A DNA stretch of 27,319 nt from Gammaproteobacteria bacterium (GTDB lineage Bacteria; Pseudomonadota; Gammaproteobacteria; Eutrophobiales; Eutrophobiaceae): assembly GCA_963582285.1 (NCBI GenBank), contig CAUZRI010000001.1, forward strand, positions 1 to 27,319, in the 5' to 3' direction. The position numbers and the translations under genes were made by a program. This document shows, piece after piece, positions 2 to 27,319 of this stretch. Position 1 is the stretch's first letter. Each line of letters starts with the position of its first letter. The notes below the pieces were generated by a model. The model saw nothing but the letters and a program-made list of their open reading frames with translations, was not told the origin of the DNA and ran no database searches.

Positions 2-934
2 ATTGCCACTGGCGGCACAATAGCAAATACCCCAACTGGACGCTTGAGTGTAGATACTGTACTTGAACAACTTCCTGAGATAGCAAAAATTGCCAGGATC
101 GGGATCTACGATTATATCCGTATCGGTAGTTCAGAGATTTCCATACAAAACTGGATCGACATTGCCCATCTCATTACTTCAGAACTTAAAAATAATCCTA
201 ATATTACTGGTATTGTCGTCACCCATGGATCCAATACCTCTGAAGAGACCGCGTATTTTCTGAATCTTGTTCTAGATACTAATAAACCTGTAGTACTCAC
301 TGCGGCACAAAGACAACGAACAACCCTGAGTGAAGACGGATCTCGAAATCTATTTGATGCAGTTCGTGTTGCTGCTGATCCCAAGGCAGGTGGCCGTGGG
401 GTAATGTTGGTGGTAAATGAAATGGCCCATGCGGCCAGAGACGTTACCAAGACCCTAAGCTATCGTACTGAGACCTGGAACTCTGGAGACCTGGGGGTAT
501 TGGGTTTGACAGATACTGATATGATCCGCTTTTACCGAAAACCGGAATACCGACATACATCAAGTAGTCAGTTTCGATTGGAGGGTATTACCATGGCATC
601 TCAGTTACCCCGGGTGGACATTATTTATGCCTATGCTGATGCCGGGCCAGAGCTGGTCCATGCCGCCATCGCTGCCGGGGCAAAAGGACTGGTCATTGCC
701 GGCTTTCCTACAGGAGGAACACCGCCAGTGGTCACAAAGGCATTGATGGAATTACAAAATAAAGGGATACCCATTGTCATGGGGAATAGGGGCGGCAGGG
801 GTAGGATACAATCTACCAGGGAATTTATTTCTGCAGACAATCTAACGGCACAAAAAGCGAGGATACTATTAATGATGTCCCTGGCCCATAACATCCCGGT
901 AGATGAGATTGAAGATGTTTTTATGAATTATTGA
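2..934 (+). CDS. Asparaginase/glutaminase-fold amidohydrolase, 5'-partial (runs off the window start)
   Basis: The frame is open from base 2 (IATGGTIANTPTGR) into the ORF-track protein, giving the TGGTIA catalytic-Thr motif. Also VVTHGSNTSEETAY (canonical HGTDT), KPVVLTAAQR, ARDVTKT (Lys motif), RVDIIYAY, GAKGLVIAG and LTAQKARILLM. Confidence 0.9.
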   Translation: MATGGTIANTPTGRLSVDTVLEQLPEIAKIARIGIYDYIRIGSSEISIQNWIDIAHLITSELKNNPNITGIVVTHGSNTSEETAYFLNLVLDTNKPVVLTAAQRQRTTLSEDGSRNLFDAVRVAADPKAGGRGVMLVVNEMAHAARDVTKTLSYRTETWNSGDLGVLGLTDTDMIRFYRKPEYRHTSSSQFRLEGITMASQLPRVDIIYAYADAGPELVHAAIAAGAKGLVIAGFPTGGTPPVVTKALMELQNKGIPIVMGNRGGRGRIQSTREFISADNLTAQKARILLMMSLAHNIPVDEIEDVFMNY

Positions 935-18340: not shown

Positions 18341-18375
18341 AAACGCAAACGGCCCGGGATTACCCGGGCCGCGTT
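18341..18375 (-). terminator. Probable terminator after the secreted cupin
   Basis: 9-bp GC stem CGGCCCGGG-TAAT-CCCGGGCCG followed by TTTGCGTTT on the minus strand, ~30 nt past the stop at 18401. Confidence 0.7.
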
Positions 18376-18400: not shown

Positions 18401-19585
18401 TTACATACCAGCAGCCGCTTTTCGTTTTGCAACCTCTGCCTTAAATTCCGCCTCCATTTCTGGCATATCAACCTCCAGTTGATCGTTGAAACGCAAACCC
18501 AGCGATACCACGATGGGGGGTGCATTAATGGCCAGGTAACGCGCCGAATTCTCTGGATTTGGATCGGGATTCATATGTTGATGGTACCAGTATATGGGTG
18601 GCACAAAAATGGTGCCCTCGTTCCAGTCCACACGGATACGGTCTTCGTATCGACCTTCAGGCCAGGTTAAGGAATAACCATTACCGGAAGTGAGAAGGAT
18701 AAAGGCATCACTGCTGTGCCGGTGTGCTTTCTTATAAAGCCCCCCAGGCATTTCCGATACATGCATATCAATGATGGAGTTACCGGACATCTTCCAGTGC
18801 ATATTAGAGGTGCCCTTGCCGCGATGGTCATAGGAGTCCAATTCAAACTCCAGGGCATCGGGGACAAAGTTGGTAACCGTGTCATTGTCTCCGGTATGCT
18901 CACTATACGTGCCGTAATCCTCTTCTGCGTCATAACGGTCGGTAAAGGCAAAATCATTCTTATAGATGAAATCCTCATTGTTCATGGCATTCATTAAAAA
19001 TGGAAAGCTTGATACAGCCACGATTCGAACAACTTCGTCACTATCGTTGAAGATTTGATAACGAACATTGTTAGGTATCGAATACAGTGCCCGATGACCG
19101 TAATCGATGCGCTGTGGGCGCCTGCCTTCCTGTTGGAGAATTATGTGGCCGGGGCCTCCGAAGAAGTACAAGCCCGCTTCGTAAACATGGCGCTGGGGTT
19201 TTATCTCGCCTTTCGGTGGGATCTCCAGTATCCAGCCATCTGTGATCTGGTAGTCAGCCATCTTGATGTACATTCCGTCTACACCAAACCGGTCCCAAGG
19301 TGCCAGAGGATAAGTCCGGGCATCCTGAATCACCACACCTTCAAAAGTAGGCATGGAATCCTTGTTAGCGGCAAACCAGTGTTCATAAGGGGTGTCCGTG
19401 GGTCTTACCCGAAACATTGTGGGTCCCACCTGCTCCGTACGGGACTCTTGTCCCTTATATGACTCGATAGCGGCTCTATTCCGGGCGGACTCTTCACTCG
19501 TATCACCTGTCCCCTGCGCATTCACACCCGTGCCTATGCAGAAGGCAAATGCGAGTGTGGACAAAATTAACATTCTTATATTCAT
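18401..19585 (-). CDS. Bicupin with a Sec signal peptide (periplasmic paralogue of 9814-10929)
   Basis: N-terminus MNIRMLILSTLAFAFCIGTGVNA-Q; shared motifs TPY..W, PQRH.YE, YKKAHRH, GYSLTW, PPIYWYHQHMN, ARYLA; GGAG Shine-Dalgarno. Confidence 0.87.
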   Translation of the reverse strand: MNIRMLILSTLAFAFCIGTGVNAQGTGDTSEESARNRAAIESYKGQESRTEQVGPTMFRVRPTDTPYEHWFAANKDSMPTFEGVVIQDARTYPLAPWDRFGVDGMYIKMADYQITDGWILEIPPKGEIKPQRHVYEAGLYFFGGPGHIILQQEGRRPQRIDYGHRALYSIPNNVRYQIFNDSDEVVRIVAVSSFPFLMNAMNNEDFIYKNDFAFTDRYDAEEDYGTYSEHTGDNDTVTNFVPDALEFELDSYDHRGKGTSNMHWKMSGNSIIDMHVSEMPGGLYKKAHRHSSDAFILLTSGNGYSLTWPEGRYEDRIRVDWNEGTIFVPPIYWYHQHMNPDPNPENSARYLAINAPPIVVSLGLRFNDQLEVDMPEMEAEFKAEVAKRKAAAGM

Positions 19586-19814
19586 TATTATCTCTCCAAA
19601 AAACTATCCATTGATGGTAGGCCGATCAGTTTAACATCACTTATGTCTGCATGTTAACCGTTTTCGAATTTGTTTCACAATTATGTAACTTATTGATTTA
19701 AGTAACCCAGTTAATGCTATTAACTTACCATCATCCATGAACCTGAATAATTAAATTACATAAAATATTGGATGTATATCGGCCATAAATATTTCAGACA
19801 CACCACTTTCACTC

Positions 19815-20828
19815 TCAGGTGTAATCTGAAAAATAGGGGAAGACCCTTAACGCAAACGCGATGACGATAAAGAAGGCGGCGGGCAGCACGAACCAGTGAT
19901 ATACGGGTACTTGCTGTACATATTCCCGGGTGATTACCCGACCCTTTTCCAGGGCATCAATCCCTGCAGATGCAGCGAATAGATCGTCCTTGGTCTCAGC
20001 ATCAAAATAATTACCCCCATATTCTAATATTGTCTCGATCAACTGCTGCACATTTTGTTTTTCCTTAATCTTTTGTTCCAGGTCTACTCCAACCAGATGT
20101 ACCTTTATTCCAGTCAGAACAATTGGGCCGAGTGCTTCAATGGGATCCCGACCAAAATTATGTTCTCCGTCTGTATACACCATAATCACCTGTCCCCTGT
20201 TCTCTTCTCCCTGTTGCCTGAGTAAAAGCGAATAAGCGAGAGCAATGCCGTCACCAATAGCAGTTTTTTTCTCATTTTTGAGAATATTTTCATCCACCAT
20301 GTCGAGATAATGCAGCAAAAAATCATGGTCCAAGGTGAGTGGACTGATTATGTAGGCGTGGTCAGCAAACACTATCATGCCGATGCGGTCATCTCTGCGG
20401 CCAATAATAAAGTCTCGTAACGCATCCTTGGTGGTTTGCAGACGAGTTCGACCCTGTTGTGTCATAGTCATTCTCTCAAGCTGGACTCGACGACTAACTT
20501 CAGGCAAATTTTCCCGATCCATCACCTCTTGCATACTCTCTGATAAATCAAGAACGATAGCGATATCCAAACCCTGTGATTCCACTTCCTGTTCTGCCAT
20601 GGGCAATACTGGCTGCATGATTGAAAAGATCAATAACACGATAGCCAACAATAATAATGTAGCAGGGAGCTGTCTGATCAATGATGAACGAATTAAAACA
20701 GGGCTTAGCAGGCTCAGCGTAGTTGAGGCAATATAATTGGATTTATTTAGGAATCGCCAGGCGAAAAATATCAGAAAGAATACGAGAAACAACCAACCGA
20801 ATTGTGGCTTAAGAAAATTCAGGTCCAT
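19815..20828 (-). CDS. Membrane-anchored vWA protein (BatA/MxaC-like)
   Basis: Two N-terminal hydrophobic segments, MIDAS DLSES, DRIGMIVF, SPLT.D, TAIGDGI, TDGEHNFG, and a C-terminal TM helix. Confidence 0.88.
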   Translation of the reverse strand: MDLNFLKPQFGWLFLVFFLIFFAWRFLNKSNYIASTTLSLLSPVLIRSSLIRQLPATLLLLAIVLLIFSIMQPVLPMAEQEVESQGLDIAIVLDLSESMQEVMDRENLPEVSRRVQLERMTMTQQGRTRLQTTKDALRDFIIGRRDDRIGMIVFADHAYIISPLTLDHDFLLHYLDMVDENILKNEKKTAIGDGIALAYSLLLRQQGEENRGQVIMVYTDGEHNFGRDPIEALGPIVLTGIKVHLVGVDLEQKIKEKQNVQQLIETILEYGGNYFDAETKDDLFAASAGIDALEKGRVITREYVQQVPVYHWFVLPAAFFIVIAFALRVFPYFSDYT

Positions 20829-20833
20829 TATTA

Positions 20834-21835
20834 TCAGGTAAGCAGGCTTTCTGCAAAAGAGATACCAACCTCAACTCGATCAGCTTCTGGCATATTTTCA
20901 TGTTTACCATAACGTGCCTGCTCACAATCTTGCAACACTAAAACCAGTTCATCCACTTTTAGAGTAATATCATTATTCTTCAATTTGGCGGCTAGTTCGT
21001 TTGCAGTCAAGGCTATAGCCATTATCCCTGTTGTCTTCTCAATATATTCTTTGAGTACTTTTTCCAACTGGTCAAAACACTCACTTCGTTGTTGCTTATC
21101 CTGAATATCATACTGCTTAATTTTCTCTAGCTCGGTTGACGTCACCTGTACAATTTTATCCAATTGATGTTGAGTATCAGGCTTTTGTTCACGAACACGA
21201 TTGGTGATATAAAGGCCAGCAGGAATTCCCGTTAGCATTATTAATAGCAATCCAACTGTCCCCACCATCCCCAACCATGATATTATTAGTTGAGCTGGCA
21301 GCAAATCGCGAAGCGCAAGGCTGCTTAATTCTGCAGGTAGTGTGCTACGTAGCACTAACGATGTAGTGGGCACCACAACTTCACCCACCGTCGCAACATC
21401 TTCAATCCGTTGCCCGGGCCGCTTGTAATAATATCGTAACCTCAACTCATCAATTTTTAATTCTGCTGTGCCAACTTCATAGGTAATCAAGCTATAACTG
21501 GCAAAATATTGCGTTCCAGACGGGTTAGTTGTTTGCTTAATATTAGAGGTAATCAACTCTAGCCCTGTAAGTACAAGCTCGTCTTCAGCCAAGTCATCCA
21601 TAAGAATATCGACATTATTACTACAGAGGATCTCCACATAGTAAGTAAGTCGATCGCCCGGGAATAATGCTGTCCTGTCTACCCAGCTTCGAACGACAAC
21701 ATCGCTACTTTCGGTACCTGACTGACTAGCCTGATCAACACCCTCCACTGAGGACTGGGCATATAATGTTGTTGAAAAAATCTGCATGGCCATGAATAAA
21801 AGACTGGTGAAAATGAATTTATTAATAATTTTCAT
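20834..21835 (-). CDS. Exported, single-TM accessory protein of the MoxR operon (MxaA/BatD-N-like)
   Basis: Signal peptide ending LYA-Q; VDRTALFPGDRLTYYVEI beta-rich domain; internal TM helix (WLGMVGTVGLLLIMLTGIPAGL); helical C-terminal domain (EKTTGIMAIALTANEL...ARYG). Overlaps the DUF58 stop codon (ATGA). Confidence 0.7.
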   Translation of the reverse strand: MKIINKFIFTSLLFMAMQIFSTTLYAQSSVEGVDQASQSGTESSDVVVRSWVDRTALFPGDRLTYYVEILCSNNVDILMDDLAEDELVLTGLELITSNIKQTTNPSGTQYFASYSLITYEVGTAELKIDELRLRYYYKRPGQRIEDVATVGEVVVPTTSLVLRSTLPAELSSLALRDLLPAQLIISWLGMVGTVGLLLIMLTGIPAGLYITNRVREQKPDTQHQLDKIVQVTSTELEKIKQYDIQDKQQRSECFDQLEKVLKEYIEKTTGIMAIALTANELAAKLKNNDITLKVDELVLVLQDCEQARYGKHENMPEADRVEVGISFAESLLT

Positions 21836-22713
21836 AACCTTTTCCTTGTGGAAAACATTTTTAGTAAGGGTTCAACCACATGCTTATCCGACCTGGCAAA
21901 AACATAATCCATCGGTGCCCTGTAAAAGGCATTAATCAGTCCCTGATGATGTTTCTGCATGGTTTGCGCATACAAGTCCCGTTGAGAGTTACCCAAGCCT
22001 ACAAGTTTCCTGGTACCACTCTCCACATCCATATATTCAATACTGGAATTTCCGGCAGGTAGATGCGATTCATTCGGGTCTTCAACTACCACTGCAACAA
22101 TATCATGCTTTAATGCGAGCATGTTCAGGGCGCGTGAGTTTGTAAGATCATCATCTGTCATAAAATCAGAGATCAAAAATATAATCCCTTCCTGACGGAA
22201 GTGTGTTCCGAGAAAATCAATCGCTGGCAACAAACAGGACTCTCCAGTTTCAGATTCTGAAGACCACAACTCCTCTAAAAACTTCCACGCCCGTGCACGG
22301 TTGTGCCGGGGGGGGTAATAATTCAGTACCTTGTCGCTGAACATCATGAAACCGATATTTACCTGATCTGCAAGAGATGAATAAATAAGGGATGCGGCAA
22401 GTAACAACTGTCTCTCTTTTTTAGACCAGGCCCTGGTTCCATATTCCATACTTTTTGTTACGTCTACTGCGATAACGACATTCAGTTCCCGGTCTGCATG
22501 GGTCTCTCTGACATAAGGAACGTTCATTCGCGCCGTCACATTCCAGTCTATCCTGCGCACATCGTCACCGGCGCGATAAAGCCGGTGTTCATCGAATTCA
22601 AAGCCAGGCCCGCGTAGCATGCTTTGGTAGGTGCCTGTCCTGAGATTTGGAAAACGACGTTTGGTATAGATCTCGATATAACGTAGTTCGTGTATTAAAT
22701 GATCAGGTAGCAT
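21832..22713 (-). CDS. DUF58 family protein (MxaS-like)
   Basis: GPGFEFDEHRLYRAGDDVRRIDWNVTAR signature, then a vWA-like VIAVDVTKSM and FLISDF; directly downstream of the MoxR ATPase. Confidence 0.92.
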   Translation of the reverse strand: MLPDHLIHELRYIEIYTKRRFPNLRTGTYQSMLRGPGFEFDEHRLYRAGDDVRRIDWNVTARMNVPYVRETHADRELNVVIAVDVTKSMEYGTRAWSKKERQLLLAASLIYSSLADQVNIGFMMFSDKVLNYYPPRHNRARAWKFLEELWSSESETGESCLLPAIDFLGTHFRQEGIIFLISDFMTDDDLTNSRALNMLALKHDIVAVVVEDPNESHLPAGNSSIEYMDVESGTRKLVGLGNSQRDLYAQTMQKHHQGLINAFYRAPMDYVFARSDKHVVEPLLKMFSTRKRL

Positions 22714-22728
22714 GATGGGTTGCAGGTG

Positions 22729-23751
22729 CTACGGTATCGCTACATTGTTGATAATACTATTTATAATATTATCGGATTCGATGCCTTCCACTTCTGCGCG
22801 CACTGTGCGCGATATCCTGTGTCTTGCGGCATCCGGAAAAATTTCTTTTACATCCCCTGGCAGGATGTAGTCCCTACCATTGAGAAAGGCGTTGACCCTG
22901 GAAAGCGCTAATACATGTTGATAGGAACGTGGCGACATACCCAAAAGCACCATTTCCTTAATATCAGTCAATCCAACCGTTTCAGGTGCCCGGGTCGCCC
23001 TGCCAAGTCTGACGATATATTCCAGAATCTTGTCATCGACATGTACATCTGTATATATCATTTTACGAATGTCTGTGACCTGATCCGTTGTCAATCGTTT
23101 GGCAAGATCCAGTTTCTCAAAGCGGTGATGCAACATTTCAATTTCTTCATCTGCACCAGGATAATCAACCCTCAGCATCATGCTAAAGCGGTCCAACTGC
23201 GCCTCAGGTAAGGTATAGACCCCCTCCTGCTCTACGGGGTTTTGCGTAGCAAGGACCCAGAAAGGATCAGCCAATTCAAATGTAGTGTCAGCCAGGGTTA
23301 CCTGGCGTTCCTGCATGGCTTCCAGCAATGCACTTTGGGTTTTTGAGGTGGCCCGATTAATCTCATCGGCAAGCAATACATTAGTAAATACCGGTCCTTT
23401 ATCTATCCTGAAACTTGCAGTATTGATTTCATATATTCGGGTACCAATTATGTCTCCAGGCAACATGTCCGGGGTTAACTGGATACGCTGAAAGTCTGCT
23501 GAGATTGTCTTAGCCAGGGTTGTTGCGGTAAGCGTTTTGGCAACACCCGGCACCCCTTCCAGCAACACATGGCCACAACCTGTTTTTACAACGCCCTCAG
23601 TTATTGAGTATGGAATGGCAGCAAACAATCCCGTTAATAACCTGCGTATCATTAATTGCTGACCTACGATGACTTTGCCAATTTCTTTTTCAATGACATT
23701 TATAAGATCATAAGCAGCGGTACTATCAAGTTGGGTTTTATCCTGCATCAT
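22729..23751 (-). CDS. moxR: MoxR-family AAA+ ATPase
   Basis: GHVLLEGVPGVAKT (Walker A), RIQLTPD, LLADEINRA (Walker B), TQSALLEAMQERQVT, LATQNPVEQEG.Y.LPEAQLDRF, and SPR. Confidence 0.96.
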   Translation of the reverse strand: MMQDKTQLDSTAAYDLINVIEKEIGKVIVGQQLMIRRLLTGLFAAIPYSITEGVVKTGCGHVLLEGVPGVAKTLTATTLAKTISADFQRIQLTPDMLPGDIIGTRIYEINTASFRIDKGPVFTNVLLADEINRATSKTQSALLEAMQERQVTLADTTFELADPFWVLATQNPVEQEGVYTLPEAQLDRFSMMLRVDYPGADEEIEMLHHRFEKLDLAKRLTTDQVTDIRKMIYTDVHVDDKILEYIVRLGRATRAPETVGLTDIKEMVLLGMSPRSYQHVLALSRVNAFLNGRDYILPGDVKEIFPDAARHRISRTVRAEVEGIESDNIINSIINNVAIP

Positions 23752-24759
23752 CTATGTCCTGATAAATAAATATAAAATTGCAAAAAAAGCAAAAAACAAT
23801 AGTGGACTGTATAAATCCATATGTTCAACAGTCCGCTTCCACCCTGTTTGTTTTTGCTCTTGTCTGACAACCTCATTTAAAGAATCTGCCAATTCATGTC
23901 CCGTAGAGGAACGAAAAAAACTGCCATGGGTCATTGATGCGACCTGACGTAGAGTAGATTCATTAAACTGAGTAGTAATTTGATTACCTTCTTCATCCAT
24001 AAGATACTCAGCTGTTCCATCCTGGTAAGCCAATGGTATGGGCACCGCCAAGTCTGTACCGATTCCAATGGTATGTACACGAATATCAGCTTCATTCAAT
24101 TGATTTAAGTAGTCTATCAGCTCCGTACTTTCATCGTCTCCATCTGATACGAGTAAAAAAGTTTTTTTCGATTGCGCTTCATCTTTTGAAACCATATCCA
24201 TGGCTGAACCAATAGCGCCCGCTACATTTGTACCATAGTAGATATCATCATCTTCACCTATCCAGTCCAAAAAAAAGAACAAGGTTTCAAGATCACTGGT
24301 TAAATGTGAAAGAATCACAGAGGTCCCTGAAAACCCAATTAAACCAACCCGGTTAATCGCATCCGGCTTATTTACCAGGAAAGATTTAATCTCCCTGATT
24401 GCCCTGGAAAAACGTGAAGGTGGAACATCCCGTGCCTGCATTGAAATCGATCTATCTAAAATTAATATCAGGTCCTGCTTTTCATATTCGGGGATTAATT
24501 TTTCAATAGATAATTGAGGTCTTAACAAGGCCAACACCAATGAGATTGATACAACTGATATAGCTATTAATGTAAAGATATCTTGTTTGTTAGTTGAAAG
24601 CCTGGAGATGGATCCCAATGATAATCCATAACCTTCCTGCAATCTGAATCTACGTTTTGCGAGGATGTGTAACCAACAAAAAATTACCAATAAGGGGACA
24701 ATTAAAACGCTTATTGCCATATCAGGTTGTAAAATATTAAATTCTGGAAAATTAAACAT
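23752..24759 (-). CDS. Membrane-anchored vWA protein (BatB/MxaL-like)
   Basis: N-terminal TMs, LLRPQ, MIDAS DRSIS, D..PSR, RVGLIGF, GTN, LVSDG, VHTIGIG, and a C-terminal TM. Its stop codon abuts the moxR start. Confidence 0.88.
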   Translation of the reverse strand: MFNFPEFNILQPDMAISVLIVPLLVIFCWLHILAKRRFRLQEGYGLSLGSISRLSTNKQDIFTLIAISVVSISLVLALLRPQLSIEKLIPEYEKQDLILILDRSISMQARDVPPSRFSRAIREIKSFLVNKPDAINRVGLIGFSGTSVILSHLTSDLETLFFFLDWIGEDDDIYYGTNVAGAIGSAMDMVSKDEAQSKKTFLLVSDGDDESTELIDYLNQLNEADIRVHTIGIGTDLAVPIPLAYQDGTAEYLMDEEGNQITTQFNESTLRQVASMTHGSFFRSSTGHELADSLNEVVRQEQKQTGWKRTVEHMDLYSPLLFFAFFAILYLFIRT

Positions 24760-24768
24760 TTTATGACA

Positions 24769-25356
24769 CTATCCTGTTTGTCTGAAGGGTTGTTCTCCCT
24801 GGCGTGGTCTTGGACGCAGAATCTCCAATACCTGTGGTGGAGATTCGTCCTCATTTTTTAAACTATCAATAAGACGATTGGTTAATTCGTAATTATATTT
24901 TGCATCCCAGTTTTCGGGTTCGAATTTGAGCACGCTAAGAAACTCTTCGCTTGCCCTTTGCAGCCATGCTATCTGCTCCTGAGGCTCATTAAATTCACTG
25001 GCACGTCTGAACAGAGCGCAACCAGCCCAGTAATGTATAGGTGCCATTACAGGACTACTAGAAGATTTCTCCAATAATGCATCATACTCACCAAGCTGGT
25101 AGAGAATATAAAACTGGTTTTGCAGTGTCGCACTATACACATCCGGTAAGAATAGTTTTGCGAACCCGAAGCTTTCAAAGCGTTGTTCTGCGCGGTCAAA
25201 ATCTTCAAGACTTTCATTATATGATTCATGTTCAAATGCCTGTTGAGCATCCATATAGGGATTGAGCCACAATGAAAGAAGTATAAAAGACAGACCACAT
25301 AAAAATGTAACCGACATAACAAACCACACAGCAGGAATTTTGAGTATTCGGTGCAC
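24769..25356 (-). CDS. Membrane-anchored TPR-like protein (MxaK/BatC-like)
   Basis: GTG start with a GGGGG ribosome-binding site; N-terminal TM; helical repeats; YWAGCALF...FLSVLKFEPENWDAKYNYEL resembles the P..WDA(K/R).N motif I recall for MxaK/BatC. Confidence 0.7.
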   Translation of the reverse strand: MHRILKIPAVWFVMSVTFLCGLSFILLSLWLNPYMDAQQAFEHESYNESLEDFDRAEQRFESFGFAKLFLPDVYSATLQNQFYILYQLGEYDALLEKSSSSPVMAPIHYWAGCALFRRASEFNEPQEQIAWLQRASEEFLSVLKFEPENWDAKYNYELTNRLIDSLKNEDESPPQVLEILRPRPRQGEQPFRQTG

Positions 25357-25720: not shown

Positions 25721-27319
25721 TTAATTACGACTGGGGATATGCGGCGGTGTTTGCTGCCAACGCCACAGTGTTGTGGGAGTGCTTTTCTCAACCTCCCAGG
25801 CAGCAACATCCAGATTGGTATTAAACTTCAATTTATTACCTCGTAATTGAGTATCTTCAAAAACTAACTGTCCTCCTATCATGGTCATAACAGGGTATAG
25901 GCTATCCAATTCCTCAACATCCACTGCCATGTAATCACCATTAAGGATAATAATATCTGCCCACTTGCCCGGTTCAATAGAACCTATCTTGTCATCTTTC
26001 CATATGGAATATGCCCCCCAACGGGTCATCATTAATAATAATGTTAATCTATCTGGTACTGCTTCTTCCGGAACGCCAAAATTTTTCCCTTCTATCTTGC
26101 GCGTCATCCACATAACACCATCTTCAAAAGGTGAATGACGGATTTCGCTCTGACTACCGAACTCACTTATCATTGTTCTGGCGCCGGCCTTTAACATACT
26201 CGCTACTGGTGCATTAAAGGTCAGATACTCCTCACCATAATCTTCTTCCAGTACCTGACTGGGGACACGCGTGGCATCACAGGAAAATGCCATGTTAATG
26301 CGAGCCGCAATCTCGATTTCTTCCTGAGTCACAGAATGACAATGGTCTACCTGCAGGCGCAGAGTGCGTAATTTTTCTATTGGGATCCCTGCGTTTAATA
26401 CCGTATCCAGATAGGCCCGTATTGCCTTGTCCCCTGCCACATGCCAACCAGGAATGCCTGTTTGTCTGCCTTCTGCTGCTAGCTCAGCGAGTACCTGTAA
26501 ATGCTCCAGTTTCCGAGTAAAGAAATCCCCATCGGGACATAATTCGCGTGACTTTAGTTCTGCTGTCTTCGCAGGGAGTGAGGTACACCAGGCCACGCCA
26601 CCACCATCCAGGCCACCTGCACTACTACCGATACTCCACATATGATCCGATCCATACCCTACCCAATCACCAATTCGCCAGTAGGTTTCTTTTACCAGAG
26701 GATTGAACGGTTGCATCCAGCGATGACCCCAGGCAAGACGGATGGGCATCAACTTGTTTCTGTCCAGATGTATGGAGGCATTGAATCCGCCTTCACACTG
26801 TACATGTGTCTTATGGGTGGTCACACCGTTCTGAGCGTTGAGCTGCATTACCTGAAAATAAGCACGGGTATATTCATCCCGGCGATTGGACTTAGGTAGA
26901 ATAATATCGCTACGAACACATCTGGGTCCATCGGTGTAATCACCAGACCAACCGGTTTTTTCATCGGTCCAAAAATCATCTGGTATAGGATTGCGGTAAC
27001 GTGCCTCAATAGACTCAATGCCACGCGTGTTGTAGACGGCACCACCCCGGGTACTTACGACCACAGGATTATTAGTTGTTAGAGGATCAAGAAATTGTCT
27101 GGTTAATGTCTTGCCGATAGCCTGTACTGCTACCTGTGCGGGGTTTACCCGCACCTGTATCCATTGGCCATCGGGTATTTGTCTAACCCTTGCAACCAAT
27201 GCCTTGCCCAGATTATCAACCAGTACATCAGGCGTTTCCGCAGAGACAGACAATTGAATCAATTCTGGTATTGCCTTTAACACCCAGGGAAAGGATGTGA
27301 GTGTGGTTTCGTAAAGATG
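25721..27319 (-). CDS. Amidohydrolase family 3 (YtcJ-like) metallohydrolase, 5'-partial (runs off the window end)
   Basis: The frame is open to base 27319 (HLYETTLTSFPW-VLKAIP...). Motifs WHVAGDKA, VDHC, MTRWGAY, GSIEPGKWADIIIL and MTMIGGQLVF. Confidence 0.88.
   Translation of the reverse strand, partial: HLYETTLTSFPWVLKAIPELIQLSVSAETPDVLVDNLGKALVARVRQIPDGQWIQVRVNPAQVAVQAIGKTLTRQFLDPLTTNNPVVVSTRGGAVYNTRGIESIEARYRNPIPDDFWTDEKTGWSGDYTDGPRCVRSDIILPKSNRRDEYTRAYFQVMQLNAQNGVTTHKTHVQCEGGFNASIHLDRNKLMPIRLAWGHRWMQPFNPLVKETYWRIGDWVGYGSDHMWSIGSSAGGLDGGGVAWCTSLPAKTAELKSRELCPDGDFFTRKLEHLQVLAELAAEGRQTGIPGWHVAGDKAIRAYLDTVLNAGIPIEKLRTLRLQVDHCHSVTQEEIEIAARINMAFSCDATRVPSQVLEEDYGEEYLTFNAPVASMLKAGARTMISEFGSQSEIRHSPFEDGVMWMTRKIEGKNFGVPEEAVPDRLTLLLMMTRWGAYSIWKDDKIGSIEPGKWADIIILNGDYMAVDVEELDSLYPVMTMIGGQLVFEDTQLRGNKLKFNTNLDVAAWEVEKSTPTTLWRWQQTPPHIPSRN

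What the first reader, a model, noticed from the sequence alone, without database searches (positions are those of the whole stretch)
19815..25356. Permuted mxaRSACKL-like MoxR/vWA operon without a methanol dehydrogenase
Seen: six tightly coupled genes in the order TPR, vWA, MoxR, DUF58, exported single-TM protein, vWA. Known: methylotroph mxaRSACKL has the same six-part inventory, and MxaACKL is needed for Ca2+ insertion into the PQQ enzyme MxaF; Bacteroides-type bat operons put vWA (batB) before TPR (batC) and add batD/batE. Here TPR precedes vWA and no stand-alone batD or batE is present, so it reads as KL-RSAC. Inference: a trans-envelope maturation or metal-loading machine for the non-canonical PQQ enzymes 5 kb downstream, or for the secreted cupin directly downstream.
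Basis: partly seen in the sequence, partly recalled or inferred. Interest (0 to 1): 0.8.

Follow-up and report, generated by a model that had tools for sequence, protein, structure and literature searches.

The report
Permuted Bat-type MoxR operon beside exported cupin
Six tightly packed genes for an ATP-driven membrane machine of the poorly understood "Bat/MoxR" kind are real, are related to Bacteroides Bat genes rather than to the methanol-dehydrogenase helper genes, and are kept next to an exported metal-binding cupin enzyme in distant bacteria, which gives this machine a testable client.

Summary
Six co-directional minus-strand genes (25356 to 19815) encode a TM+TPR protein, a vWA protein, MoxR, DUF58, an exported single-TM protein and a second vWA protein. 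Gaps between them are 9, 0, 15, -4 and 5 bp.

The Mxa reading is only partly right. Five of the six proteins score far higher on Bacteroidales Bat proteins than on MxaR/S/A/C/L, including those of a methylotroph in the same family. Only the TPR protein is MxaK-like (shared WDAKYN(Y/L)E motif). The exported single-TM protein is a short BatD-like protein.

The permuted order defines a monophyletic MoxR clade (100/99). It occurs in Ca. Eutrophobius (Gammaproteobacteria), a Bryobacteraceae contig and several soil contigs, and was not found in the other genera of its own family that were searched.

The PQQ link is weak. PQQ genes sit in 2 of 80 loci that hold orthologues of the exported cupin, and PQQ homologues occur in genomes without the operon.

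The link to the Sec-exported bicupin directly downstream is strong. It holds in every Eutrophobius locus that reaches the cupin. In the metagenome cupin loci, 10 carry this operon and 11 carry a second, unpermuted MoxR operon type.

Best reading: a periplasm-facing MoxR/vWA maturation machine for exported metalloenzymes. This is inferred, not shown. This scan has noted other Bat-like cassettes before, on other DNA.

The parts
24769..25356 (-). g1: 195-aa membrane-anchored TPR-like protein, MxaK-type (also BatC-related). It has an N-terminal TM helix and the conserved motif WDAKYNYE.
   Evidence: No Pfam hit. AF2 pLDDT 85, TM helix plus helical repeats. Foldseek hits to TPR proteins, BatC at rank 27. 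hhalign to MxaK 97.3%, E 2e-11; to BatC 61%. The profile hits MxaK in class-wide genomes.
23752..24759 (-). g2: 335-aa three-TM vWA protein, BatB-like, with an intact MIDAS motif (D102-R-S-I-S106, T177, D206). The vWA domain probably faces the periplasm.
   Evidence: Pfam VWA_2/VWA and NCBIfam BatB 82.7 bits, below cut-off. hhalign to BatB E 1.9e-32, BatA 5e-31, MxaC 1e-10, MxaL 4e-6. MIDAS residues are invariant in 7 orthologues. Topology is inferred from BB0173 (PMC5700661).
22729..23751 (-). g3: 340-aa MoxR AAA+ ATPase (AAA_3 plus AAA_lid_2). Walker A is GVPGVAKT and Walker B is LLADE.
   Evidence: Pfam AAA_3 1.3e-62. Motifs. The tree places it in a monophyletic 'permuted operon' clade with 100/99 support.
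21832..22713 (-). g4: 293-aa DUF58 protein (cytoplasmic vWA-like MoxR partner; equivalent to MxaS).
   Evidence: Pfam DUF58 5.7e-50. Its HMM scores 196-228 bits on Bat DUF58 versus 41-61 on MxaS.
20834..21835 (-). g5: 333-aa exported bitopic protein, a short BatD-like protein (Bacteroides bat ORF3/bf2420 type). It has a signal peptide, a periplasmic beta-sandwich, a TM helix and a cytoplasmic helical domain with the motif CEQARYG.
   Evidence: AF2 model. Foldseek top hits are named 'Protein BatD', E down to 7e-14. hhalign to Phocaeicola ORF3 94% over the full length, and to the BatD C-terminus 89%. MxaA matches the N-terminal part only, 82%. 499 representative homologues.
19815..20828 (-). g6: 337-aa three-TM vWA protein, BatA-like (equivalent to MxaC), with an intact MIDAS motif (D94-L-S-E-S98, T189, D220).
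   Evidence: Pfam VWA_2/VWA and NCBIfam BatA 116.6 bits, below cut-off. hhalign to BatA E 2.8e-30, BatB 2e-24, MxaC 5e-15, MxaL 1e-3. MIDAS residues are invariant.
18401..19585 (-). Sec-exported 394-aa bicupin, the conserved downstream partner and proposed client. It has a C-terminal H288-x-H290...H335/H337 site and a degenerate N-terminal site.
   Evidence: Pfam Cupin_2. Orthologues are 71-79% identical and all have signal peptides. It lies directly downstream of the operon in all six Eutrophobius loci that reach it, and in L049, L055, L096, L099 and L103. The nearest solved relative is gentisate 1,2-dioxygenase 3BU7, E 3e-8, C-terminal domain only. It is transcribed in seawater.
18349..18372 (-). 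Strong terminator-like hairpin (10 bp stem, 9 GC) after the cupin. It is the only strong one between g1 and the TonB-dependent receptor.
   Evidence: No comparable hairpin lies in the 229-bp g6-cupin spacer. A promoter-like site lies at 19657-19628.
25721..27319 (-). Amidohydro_3 gene directly upstream on the same strand, 364 bp before g1. Its 5' end runs off the window, so the N-terminus was not seen; homologues elsewhere in the genome carry hydrophobic N-terminal leaders. It is a second candidate client class.
   Evidence: Pfam Amidohydro_3 3.5e-29. Tandem amidohydrolases precede the operon in all genus loci and in L055. G000 has 36 such ORFs, so chance adjacency is not small.

Best explanation
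This is an accessory, horizontally spread subtype of the Bat-type (MoxR-proper) MoxR/DUF58/vWA membrane system. In it, the MxaK-like TPR gene and the BatB-like vWA gene have moved in front of MoxR.

Shown:
- The six families and their tight coupling.
- The Bat-type affinity of five of the six proteins.
- The monophyly of the permuted type.
- Its conserved adjacency to a Sec-exported bicupin.

Inferred mechanism:
- The cytoplasmic MoxR hexamer and DUF58 dock on the cytoplasmic helical domain of the short BatD-like protein and on the membrane anchors.
- ATP-driven remodelling is passed across the inner membrane to the two periplasm-facing MIDAS vWA domains, the beta-sandwich of g5 and the TPR protein.
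- These periplasmic parts hold an exported apo-enzyme and help load or lock its metal centre.
- The best candidate client is the bicupin encoded directly downstream. The secreted Amidohydro_3 enzymes upstream are possible further clients.

This mechanism parallels MxaRSACKL, in which all six proteins are needed to put Ca2+ into periplasmic methanol dehydrogenase (PMC12276312).
For: Anatomy:
- The MIDAS motifs of both vWA proteins and the Walker motifs of MoxR are intact and invariant.
- The periplasmic orientation of BatA-type vWA domains was shown experimentally for BB0173, which has the same three-TM layout (PMC5700661).

Bat-type, distinct clade:
- HMM scores and hhalign put five proteins with Bat.
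- In the MoxR tree, 13 permuted-operon MoxRs, including the Bryobacteraceae L052, group at 100/99. They are apart from the 7 paralogues in this genome and from MxaR.

Accessory distribution:
- g5 was found in 6 of 8 other genomes of the genus. It was not found in any of the 28 other genera of the family in that sample.
- G008, which is 100% complete, lacks g1, g5 and the cupin orthologue.

Cupin link:
- The exported bicupin lies directly downstream in all six Eutrophobius loci that reach it.
- L049 has the same arrangement, with a cupin 70% identical.
- The acidobacterial L052 has signal-peptide cupins on both sides of the operon.
- Of 53 metagenome loci holding cupin orthologues with at least 3 kb of flank, 10 carry this operon. 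Another 11 carry a different MoxR operon in canonical order that ends ...vWA317-f1-CUPIN. In all, 24 carry some MoxR/vWA element. My rough expectation by chance is about 5%, from 8 MoxR loci per 1.8 Mb.
- The only strong terminator follows the cupin.
- The cupin is transcribed in four seawater metatranscriptomes. Operon pieces are also present in all four, at low depth.

Complex prediction:
- The cupin was scored against the periplasmic domains of g2, g6 and g5. ipSAE was 0.45 and the best control 0.14.
- The mark was reached by 58 of 80 solved complexes and 2 of 110 mismatched pairs. At 0.60 or under it was reached by only 7 of those 80, so this is weak support.
- The runs agree in at least 39% of contacts, and the partner pLDDT is at least 81.

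Precedent: MxaR, S, A, C, K and L are all required for Ca2+ incorporation (PMC12276312).
Against: - No experiment links any Bat-type system to a client.
- Four distant copies of the permuted operon have no cupin within 10 kb (L024, the P0042 locus, L053, L054).
- One context of cupin orthologues (DUF1028-amidohydrolase-cupin-NMT1; for example L080 and L086) has no MoxR gene within 9-10 kb.
- The cupin has its own promoter-like site. Its RNA contigs are about ten times deeper than those of the operon, and three of them stop at its start codon. It is therefore not simply the seventh gene of one transcript.
- Many of the loci are related to each other, so the counts overstate independence.
- The complex prediction is only weak support. 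It used a four-chain job, which differs from the tool's calibration.
Confidence: 0.5

Rival explanations
1. It is a general Bat-type envelope or stress system with no dedicated client. The neighbouring cupin, PQQ and amidohydrolase genes are only fellow passengers of a mobile catabolic island.
For: Five of the six proteins cluster with Bat proteins. Neighbours vary between distant loci, and L053 has neither a cupin nor a PQQ gene. The cupin is expressed far above the operon and has its own promoter-like site.
Against: The operon is not housekeeping. It was not found in the 28 other genera of the family searched with g5 or in G008, and the genome has seven other MoxR loci. Cupin adjacency is kept across two phyla. 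It recurs with an independent MoxR operon type in three different arrangements.
Confidence: 0.22
2. The clients are the secreted Amidohydro_3 enzymes, or exported metalloenzymes of the island in general. The cupin is only one of several.
For: Amidohydrolases sit directly upstream on the same strand in all genus loci and in L055. In G000, other MoxR operons (C17, C32) and the tail of a type-B operon (C21) also abut amidohydrolase arrays. In six type-B loci an amidohydrolase is divergent from MoxR. L051 pairs DUF58, a g5-like gene and a vWA gene with an Amidohydro_3 gene.
Against: G000 has 36 Amidohydro_3-like ORFs in 1.8 Mb, so adjacency by chance is common. Distant permuted operons (L024, L049, L052, L053, L054) have no amidohydrolase beside them.
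Confidence: 0.18
3. This is the first reader's main reading: an Mxa-like metal loader for the two non-canonical PQQ dehydrogenases 5 kb downstream.
For: The MxaRSACKL precedent applies, and g1 is MxaK-like. PQQ genes lie in the window and in 3 of the 5 other Eutrophobius loci that extend past the cupin. A PQQ-family gene lies within 10 kb in 3 of 7 distant operon loci, and a GSDH gene in a fourth.
Against: G002 and G007 keep operon plus cupin but have no PQQ gene there. The PQQ gene near L024 is only 22% identical to the window's. G439 (98% complete) and G437 hold 12 and 8 PQQ homologues, up to 55% identical, but no g1 or g5. PQQ-family ORFs occur in only 2 of 80 cupin loci. These genomes are PQQ-rich, with 12 PQQ-family ORFs per 1.8 Mb, so 3 of about 16 loci is near chance. 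No mxaI is present in G000.
Confidence: 0.07

Closest known systems
Bacteroides aerotolerance (Bat) operon / MoxR-proper (MRP) operons: moxR-DUF58-ORF3(bf2420)-batA-batB-batC-batD-batE. The example fetched here is Phocaeicola plebeius, L035.
   Same: The protein families are the same. Sequence similarity is highest for MoxR, DUF58, both vWA proteins and the BatD-like ORF3. The core order MoxR-DUF58-ORF3-BatA is kept. The three-TM vWA layout matches BB0173.
   Different: The BatC/K-like and BatB-like genes precede MoxR, in the order TPR then vWA. There is no long BatD and no BatE. The TPR protein is a short TM-anchored MxaK type rather than a BatC lipoprotein type. The operon is accessory and is tied to an exported bicupin.
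mxaRSACKL of MxaFI methanol dehydrogenase clusters. Examples fetched here are L045-L048, including a genome of the same family (G022).
   Same: There are six parts with one-to-one equivalents (R=g3, S=g4, A=g5 weakly, C=g6, K=g1, L=g2 weakly). K precedes L. g1 shares the WDAKYN(Y/L)E motif with MxaK. The plausible function is the same: loading metal into a periplasmic enzyme.
   Different: The order is a cyclic permutation (KL-RSAC). No mxaFJGI is present. Five proteins are much nearer Bat than Mxa. MxaR is a separate long branch in the tree. The proposed client is a bicupin, not a PQQ enzyme.
Other MoxR/vWA cofactor-insertion pairs (NorQ/NorD for the FeB site of cNOR, CoxD/E/F, CbbQ/O). This comparison rests on established knowledge and PMC9976466.
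   Same: A MoxR AAA+ ATPase plus a MIDAS vWA partner act on a dedicated metalloenzyme encoded nearby.
   Different: Those systems are cytoplasmic two-protein systems. Here the vWA domains are membrane-anchored and probably periplasmic, and four extra membrane proteins take part.

Membership tests
Bat-type (MoxR-proper) MoxR/DUF58/vWA operon | MoxR AAA_3 ATPase with intact Walker motifs, followed directly by a DUF58 gene | tested here: met
   Pfam AAA_3 1.3e-62 and DUF58 5.7e-50. Walker A is GVPGVAKT and Walker B is LLADE. The gap between the two genes is 15 bp.
Bat-type (MoxR-proper) MoxR/DUF58/vWA operon | Two BatA/BatB-type membrane vWA proteins (two N-terminal TM helices, a MIDAS vWA domain, one C-terminal TM helix) | tested here: met
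   hhalign to BatA/BatB gives E 1e-24 to 1e-32 over the full length. DxSxS, T and D residues are invariant. The Pfam BatA N-terminal model and the NCBIfam cut-offs were not reached.
Bat-type (MoxR-proper) MoxR/DUF58/vWA operon | BatD-domain protein (exported beta-sandwich, TM helix, cytoplasmic tail) | tested here: met
   This holds for the short form only. Foldseek top hits are 'Protein BatD'. hhalign to Bat ORF3 gives 94% and to the BatD C-terminus 89%. Pfam PF13584 itself is not hit.
Bat-type (MoxR-proper) MoxR/DUF58/vWA operon | Canonical gene order moxR-DUF58-ORF3-batA-batB-batC-batD-batE, with a long BatD and BatE | tested here: not met
   The order here is TPR-vWA-MoxR-DUF58-ORF3-vWA. 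No long BatD or BatE lies in the window. The canonical order was seen in L035 and L032.
MxaRSACKL (methanol dehydrogenase Ca2+ insertion genes) | Six-part inventory R, S, A, C, K, L | tested here: met
   One-to-one equivalents by hhalign. K 97%, C 98%, A 82% (N-terminal part only), L 87%. R and S are equivalent by Pfam.
MxaRSACKL (methanol dehydrogenase Ca2+ insertion genes) | Location inside an mxaFJGI...RSACKLD cluster, in the order RSACKL | tested here: not met
   PF02315 (MxaI) has no match in G000, which is 60% complete. No MxaF-type gene is adjacent. The order is permuted. True clusters were seen in L045-L048.
MxaRSACKL (methanol dehydrogenase Ca2+ insertion genes) | Proteins group with Mxa orthologues rather than with other MoxR operons | tested here: not met
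   Mxa scores are 2 to 10 times lower than Bat scores for five proteins. MxaR forms a separate clade at 100/100. g1 is the only exception, being closer to MxaK.
MxaRSACKL (methanol dehydrogenase Ca2+ insertion genes) | Required for metal insertion into a periplasmic PQQ enzyme | not testable with these tools
   This needs genetics or biochemistry. The co-occurrence tests argue against a PQQ client.

The most novel reading that the evidence does not exclude
Bat-type MoxR/vWA membrane systems, whose function has been unknown since their discovery, are periplasmic metallocentre-assembly machines. This permuted subtype and an unpermuted sister type would both be dedicated to one family of Sec-exported, gentisate-dioxygenase-like bicupins. 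The cupin would work with a TonB-dependent receptor and with exported proteins whose mature end begins with His. It would be the first identified client of a Bat-type system, and it would show how a 3-His metal site is filled outside the cytoplasm.
Probability: 0.35. Interest if true: 0.75.

Novelty: new variant of a known kind. Interest (0 to 1): 0.55.

Why it matters
Bat/MoxR-proper operons are among the most widespread bacterial gene clusters that still lack a known mechanism. Only the distant Mxa version has a defined job, which is Ca2+ loading of methanol dehydrogenase. A Bat-type subtype that keeps an exported metalloenzyme beside it in Gammaproteobacteria and Acidobacteriota offers a concrete client. 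The same cupin family is also wedded to a second MoxR operon type. This makes a simple test possible: metal content and activity of the cupin with and without six genes. It also shows that the PQQ dehydrogenases in this window should not be assumed to depend on the operon.

Tried and rejected
1. Pfam and NCBIfam gave no family for g1 and g5. These were resolved by structure models and profile comparison.

2. The search for related loci with the wide g5 alignment A3 failed because it had no conserved stretch. It was repeated with A2.

3. 'Mxa-like' membership was rejected for five of the six proteins.

4. The PQQ co-occurrence hypothesis was rejected as a general rule.

5. f8 (288 aa), which sits in the K position of the type-B operon, shows no detectable similarity to g1, MxaK or BatC (hhalign 2% or less). 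The claim that type B has RSACKL order therefore rests on position only. The type-B third gene likewise shows no detectable similarity to g5.

6. A class-wide co-occurrence test of g1 against the cupin could not be done. The g1 family proper was found in no other genome among the 400 Gammaproteobacteria sampled.

7. No 'WD.D' string was found in the two PQQ proteins.

8. Complex prediction gave only weak support and is not used as evidence of binding on its own.

9. The metatranscriptome data are contigs only. They cannot show transcript ends or true levels.

Full report
**Observation**

The window holds six minus-strand ORFs exactly at 19815-25356. In order of transcription they are:

| Gene | Coordinates | Length |
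|---|---|---|
| g1 | 24769-25356 | 195 aa |
| g2 | 23752-24759 | 335 aa |
| g3 | 22729-23751 | 340 aa |
| g4 | 21832-22713 | 293 aa |
| g5 | 20834-21835 | 333 aa |
| g6 | 19815-20828 | 337 aa |

- The spacers are 9, 0, 15, -4 and 5 bp.
- A 364-bp gap separates g1 from an upstream Amidohydro_3 gene.
- A 229-bp gap separates g6 from a downstream 394-aa cupin gene that has a signal peptide.
- Pfam gives VWA/VWA_2 for g2 and g6, AAA_3 plus AAA_lid_2 for g3 and DUF58 for g4. It gives nothing for g1 and g5.
- NCBIfam gives BatB-like (82.7 bits) for g2 and BatA-like (116.6 bits) for g6. Both are below the cut-offs of those Leptospira-specific models.
- The MoxR Walker motifs are intact, and so are the DxSxS...T...D MIDAS motifs of both vWA proteins. 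The MIDAS residues are invariant in seven orthologues.

**The two unassigned proteins**

- g1 models confidently (pLDDT 85) as one N-terminal TM helix plus stacked helical hairpins. Foldseek finds TPR proteins, vWA-TPR fusions and, at rank 27, BatC.
- g5 models as signal peptide, beta-sandwich (46-162), TM helix (188-216) and a helical C-terminal domain.
- The Foldseek top hits for g5 are almost all named 'Protein BatD' (E down to 7e-14).
- A profile of 42 g5 homologues aligns over its full length with the unnamed third gene of the Phocaeicola plebeius bat operon (94%). It also aligns with the C-terminus of BatD, including the motif CE(Q/Y)ARY (89%).
- The literature already notes that B. fragilis carries the BatD domain twice, in bf2420 and bf2416 (PMC5700661).
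'No batD' is not correct, although a long BatD and BatE are absent.

**Bat or Mxa?**

I fetched true mxaFJGIRSACKL clusters from four gammaproteobacterial genomes, one of them (G022) in the same family as the window. I also fetched two Bacteroidales bat operons. HMMs were built from each gene's orthologues and scored against both sets:

| Gene | Bits on Bat proteins | Bits on Mxa proteins |
|---|---|---|
| g3 (MoxR) | 331-342 | 117-151 (MxaR) |
| g4 (DUF58) | 196-228 | 41-61 (MxaS) |
| g2 (vWA) | 114-129 (BatA/B) | 22 or less (MxaC), 10 or less (MxaL) |
| g6 (vWA) | 110-115 (BatA) | 34 or less (MxaC) |
| g5 | 19-29 (BatD/ORF3) | 5 or less (MxaA) |
| g1 | 17-20 (BatC) | 24-34 (MxaK) |

- hhalign agrees. 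g1 against MxaK gives 97.3% and E 2e-11. g1 against BatC gives 61%.
- g1 and MxaK share the motif WDAKYN(Y/L)E.
- In a sample of 400 Gammaproteobacteria the g1 profile hit 10 genomes besides its own. Seven are mxaI-positive methylotrophs, and the three hits I checked by coordinates lie in or at mxaK.
- In a maximum-likelihood MoxR tree, the 13 MoxRs from permuted operons form one clade (100/99). They are separate from the seven MoxR paralogues of this genome. MxaR sits on its own long branch (100/100).
- The one-to-one inventory K-L-R-S-A-C is therefore real as homology of parts, and K is truly MxaK-like. As a whole, however, the operon belongs with Bat-type systems.

**Distribution**

- The genus is Candidatus Eutrophobius, a gammaproteobacterial genus. 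The locus occurs in many seawater metagenomes.
- The MAG is 60% complete and has 8 MoxR loci.
- g5 was found in 6 of 8 other genomes of the genus. It was not found in any of the 28 other genera of the family in that sample.
- G008 (100% complete) lacks g1 and g5. The operon is therefore accessory.
- The same six genes in the same permuted order occur on several other contigs. These are L024, the P0040 locus, the P0042 locus, L049, L053, L054 and L052.
- The g5 homologue on L052 also carries a Bryobacteraceae MAG annotation. On L052 the MoxR is 58% identical to the window's, and each of the six genes is the best match of its counterpart.

**PQQ link**

- Two of the Eutrophobius loci that extend past the cupin (G002, G007) have operon plus cupin but no PQQ gene.
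- The PQQ gene near L024 is only 22% identical to the window's.
- G439 (98% complete) and G437 carry 12 and 8 PQQ homologues, up to 55% identical, but no g1 or g5.
- Among 80 metagenome loci with orthologues of the exported cupin, PQQ-family ORFs occur in 2. Both are close relatives of the window.
- PQQ genes lie within 10 kb of 3 of 7 distant operon loci. These genomes are PQQ-rich, with 12 PQQ-family ORFs in 1.8 Mb. Adding the nine soil loci found through the cupin gives 3 of about 16, which is near chance.

**Cupin link**

- The exported bicupin lies directly downstream in all six Eutrophobius loci that reach it. G001's contig ends inside g6.
- It is also directly downstream in L049, where the cupin is 70% identical and has a signal peptide.
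- In L052, signal-peptide cupins flank the operon on both sides.
- The reciprocal scan started from the cupin. Of 53 loci with at least 3 kb of flank:
  - 10 carry the permuted operon, either directly upstream or divergent about 3.5 kb away;
  - 11 carry a different MoxR operon, related to the C30/C74/C17 paralogues of this genome. Its order is MoxR-DUF58-third-vWA-f8-vWA317-f1-CUPIN-TBDR;
  - 24 carry some MoxR/vWA element.
- From 8 MoxR loci per 1.8 Mb, I estimate about 5% by chance. Relatedness among loci inflates the counts. Even so, two operon types and at least three arrangements argue for selection on the linkage.
- The cupin's nearest solved relative is gentisate 1,2-dioxygenase (3BU7). 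The match is weak and covers only the C-terminal cupin domain.
- A TonB-dependent receptor is beside the cupin in 22 loci.

**Transcription**

- The only strong terminator-like hairpin follows the cupin (18372-18349). A promoter-like site lies in the g6-cupin spacer.
- In four seawater metatranscriptomes the cupin is fully covered by RNA contigs at word depth 5-31.
- The six genes appear only as scattered pieces at depth 1-3, and three contigs stop at 19585-19593.
- Contigs cannot prove transcript ends or levels. The uneven depth does argue for RNA rather than carried-over DNA, and for a cupin transcript of its own.

**Mechanism (inferred)**

- BB0173, a BatA-type protein with the same three-TM layout, has its vWA domain in the periplasm (PMC5700661).
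- MxaR, S, A, C, K and L are all needed for Ca2+ incorporation into periplasmic methanol dehydrogenase in a reconstituted E. coli system (PMC12276312).
- By analogy, cytoplasmic MoxR and DUF58 would drive, through the membrane anchors and the cytoplasmic domain of g5, the periplasmic vWA/MIDAS, beta-sandwich and TPR parts. Those parts would hold an exported apo-enzyme while its metal site is filled.
- A four-chain complex prediction scored the cupin against the periplasmic parts of g2, g6 and g5.
  - ipSAE was 0.45, against a best control of 0.14. That control was the one with g2's vWA domain replaced.
  - The mark was reached by 58 of 80 solved complexes and 2 of 110 mismatched pairs. At 0.60 or under it was reached by only 7 of those 80, so the support is weak.
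  - The runs agree in at least 39% of contacts, and the partner pLDDT is at least 81.

**Rivals**

- A client-less envelope system.
- The secreted amidohydrolases as clients. They abut several MoxR operons here, but the genome has 36 of them.
- The PQQ enzymes as clients.

**Verdict**

- This is a new, conserved variant of a known kind of system.
- Its most useful yield is a testable client, the exported bicupin, for Bat-type MoxR/vWA machines.
- Earlier notes of this scan describe other Bat-like cassettes on other DNA. None describes this permuted type or the cupin link, apart from an unchecked note of a BatB-like gene beside a cupin in a Bacteroidota genome.
- G075, an unpublished genome, contributed only one of the MxaK hits and one of the mxaI hits.

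Noticed in passing
Metagenome loci L061, L064-L066, L069, L076, L077, L082, L127; own genome contigs C74, C21, C30, C17: There is a second, unpermuted MoxR supercluster: Amidohydro_3 / MoxR-DUF58-third(334 aa)-vWA-f8(288 aa)-vWA317-f1(253 aa)-exported cupin-TonB receptor-f9(345 aa)-FtsX-ABC-f18(291 aa)-HEAT protein. Several of these families have no Pfam match.
   Followed up: partly
G000 whole genome (for example C21:2433-12648, C84, C17, C32, C28): Amidohydro_3 enzymes are massively expanded. There are 36 ORFs in a 1.8-Mb, 60%-complete MAG, and most of those inspected have hydrophobic N-terminal leaders. One array has five in tandem, and several sit next to MoxR operons.
   Followed up: partly
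L049:8052-9910, L050:4117-5888, L052:13130-14194; own C84:6043-7268; families f1, f9, f18 in the cupin loci: HupE_UreJ_2 membrane proteins recur around the cupin/MoxR modules. So do exported proteins whose N-terminal region carries His-containing motifs right after the hydrophobic leader (AHAHIPLTP, AHLTGVFAHF, AHIKNE). This hints at periplasmic metal handling.
   Followed up: no
G000 contigs C112, C76, C30, C179, C74, C17, C32 and the window: The MAG has eight MoxR AAA_3 loci, an unusually high number for a 1.8-Mb assembly. They belong to at least four distinct operon types.
   Followed up: partly
L047 (G022:C8:69500-89000): A genome of the same family carries a complete canonical mxaFJGIRSACKLD cluster. 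True Mxa and this Bat-type operon therefore coexist within one bacterial family as clearly different systems.
   Followed up: yes
window 18401-19585: The exported bicupin is transcribed in four seawater metatranscriptomes at much higher contig depth than the six-gene operon. RNA contigs stop at its start codon.
   Followed up: partly
G000:C145:2632-4810: A BatB-like vWA gene (315 aa, cut by the contig end) lies directly upstream of a bicupin paralogue without a signal peptide (369 aa). This is a further vWA-cupin adjacency in the same genome.
   Followed up: no
window 2-934 and L052:4110-5126: The asparaginase-like gene at the far end of the window has a 44%-identical homologue right next to the cupin/MoxR module of the Bryobacteraceae contig. 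Na_sulph_symp, class II aldolase, ThDP-enzyme and DUF5916/CBM9 genes also recur near distant copies. This suggests a shared mobile catabolic island.
   Followed up: no
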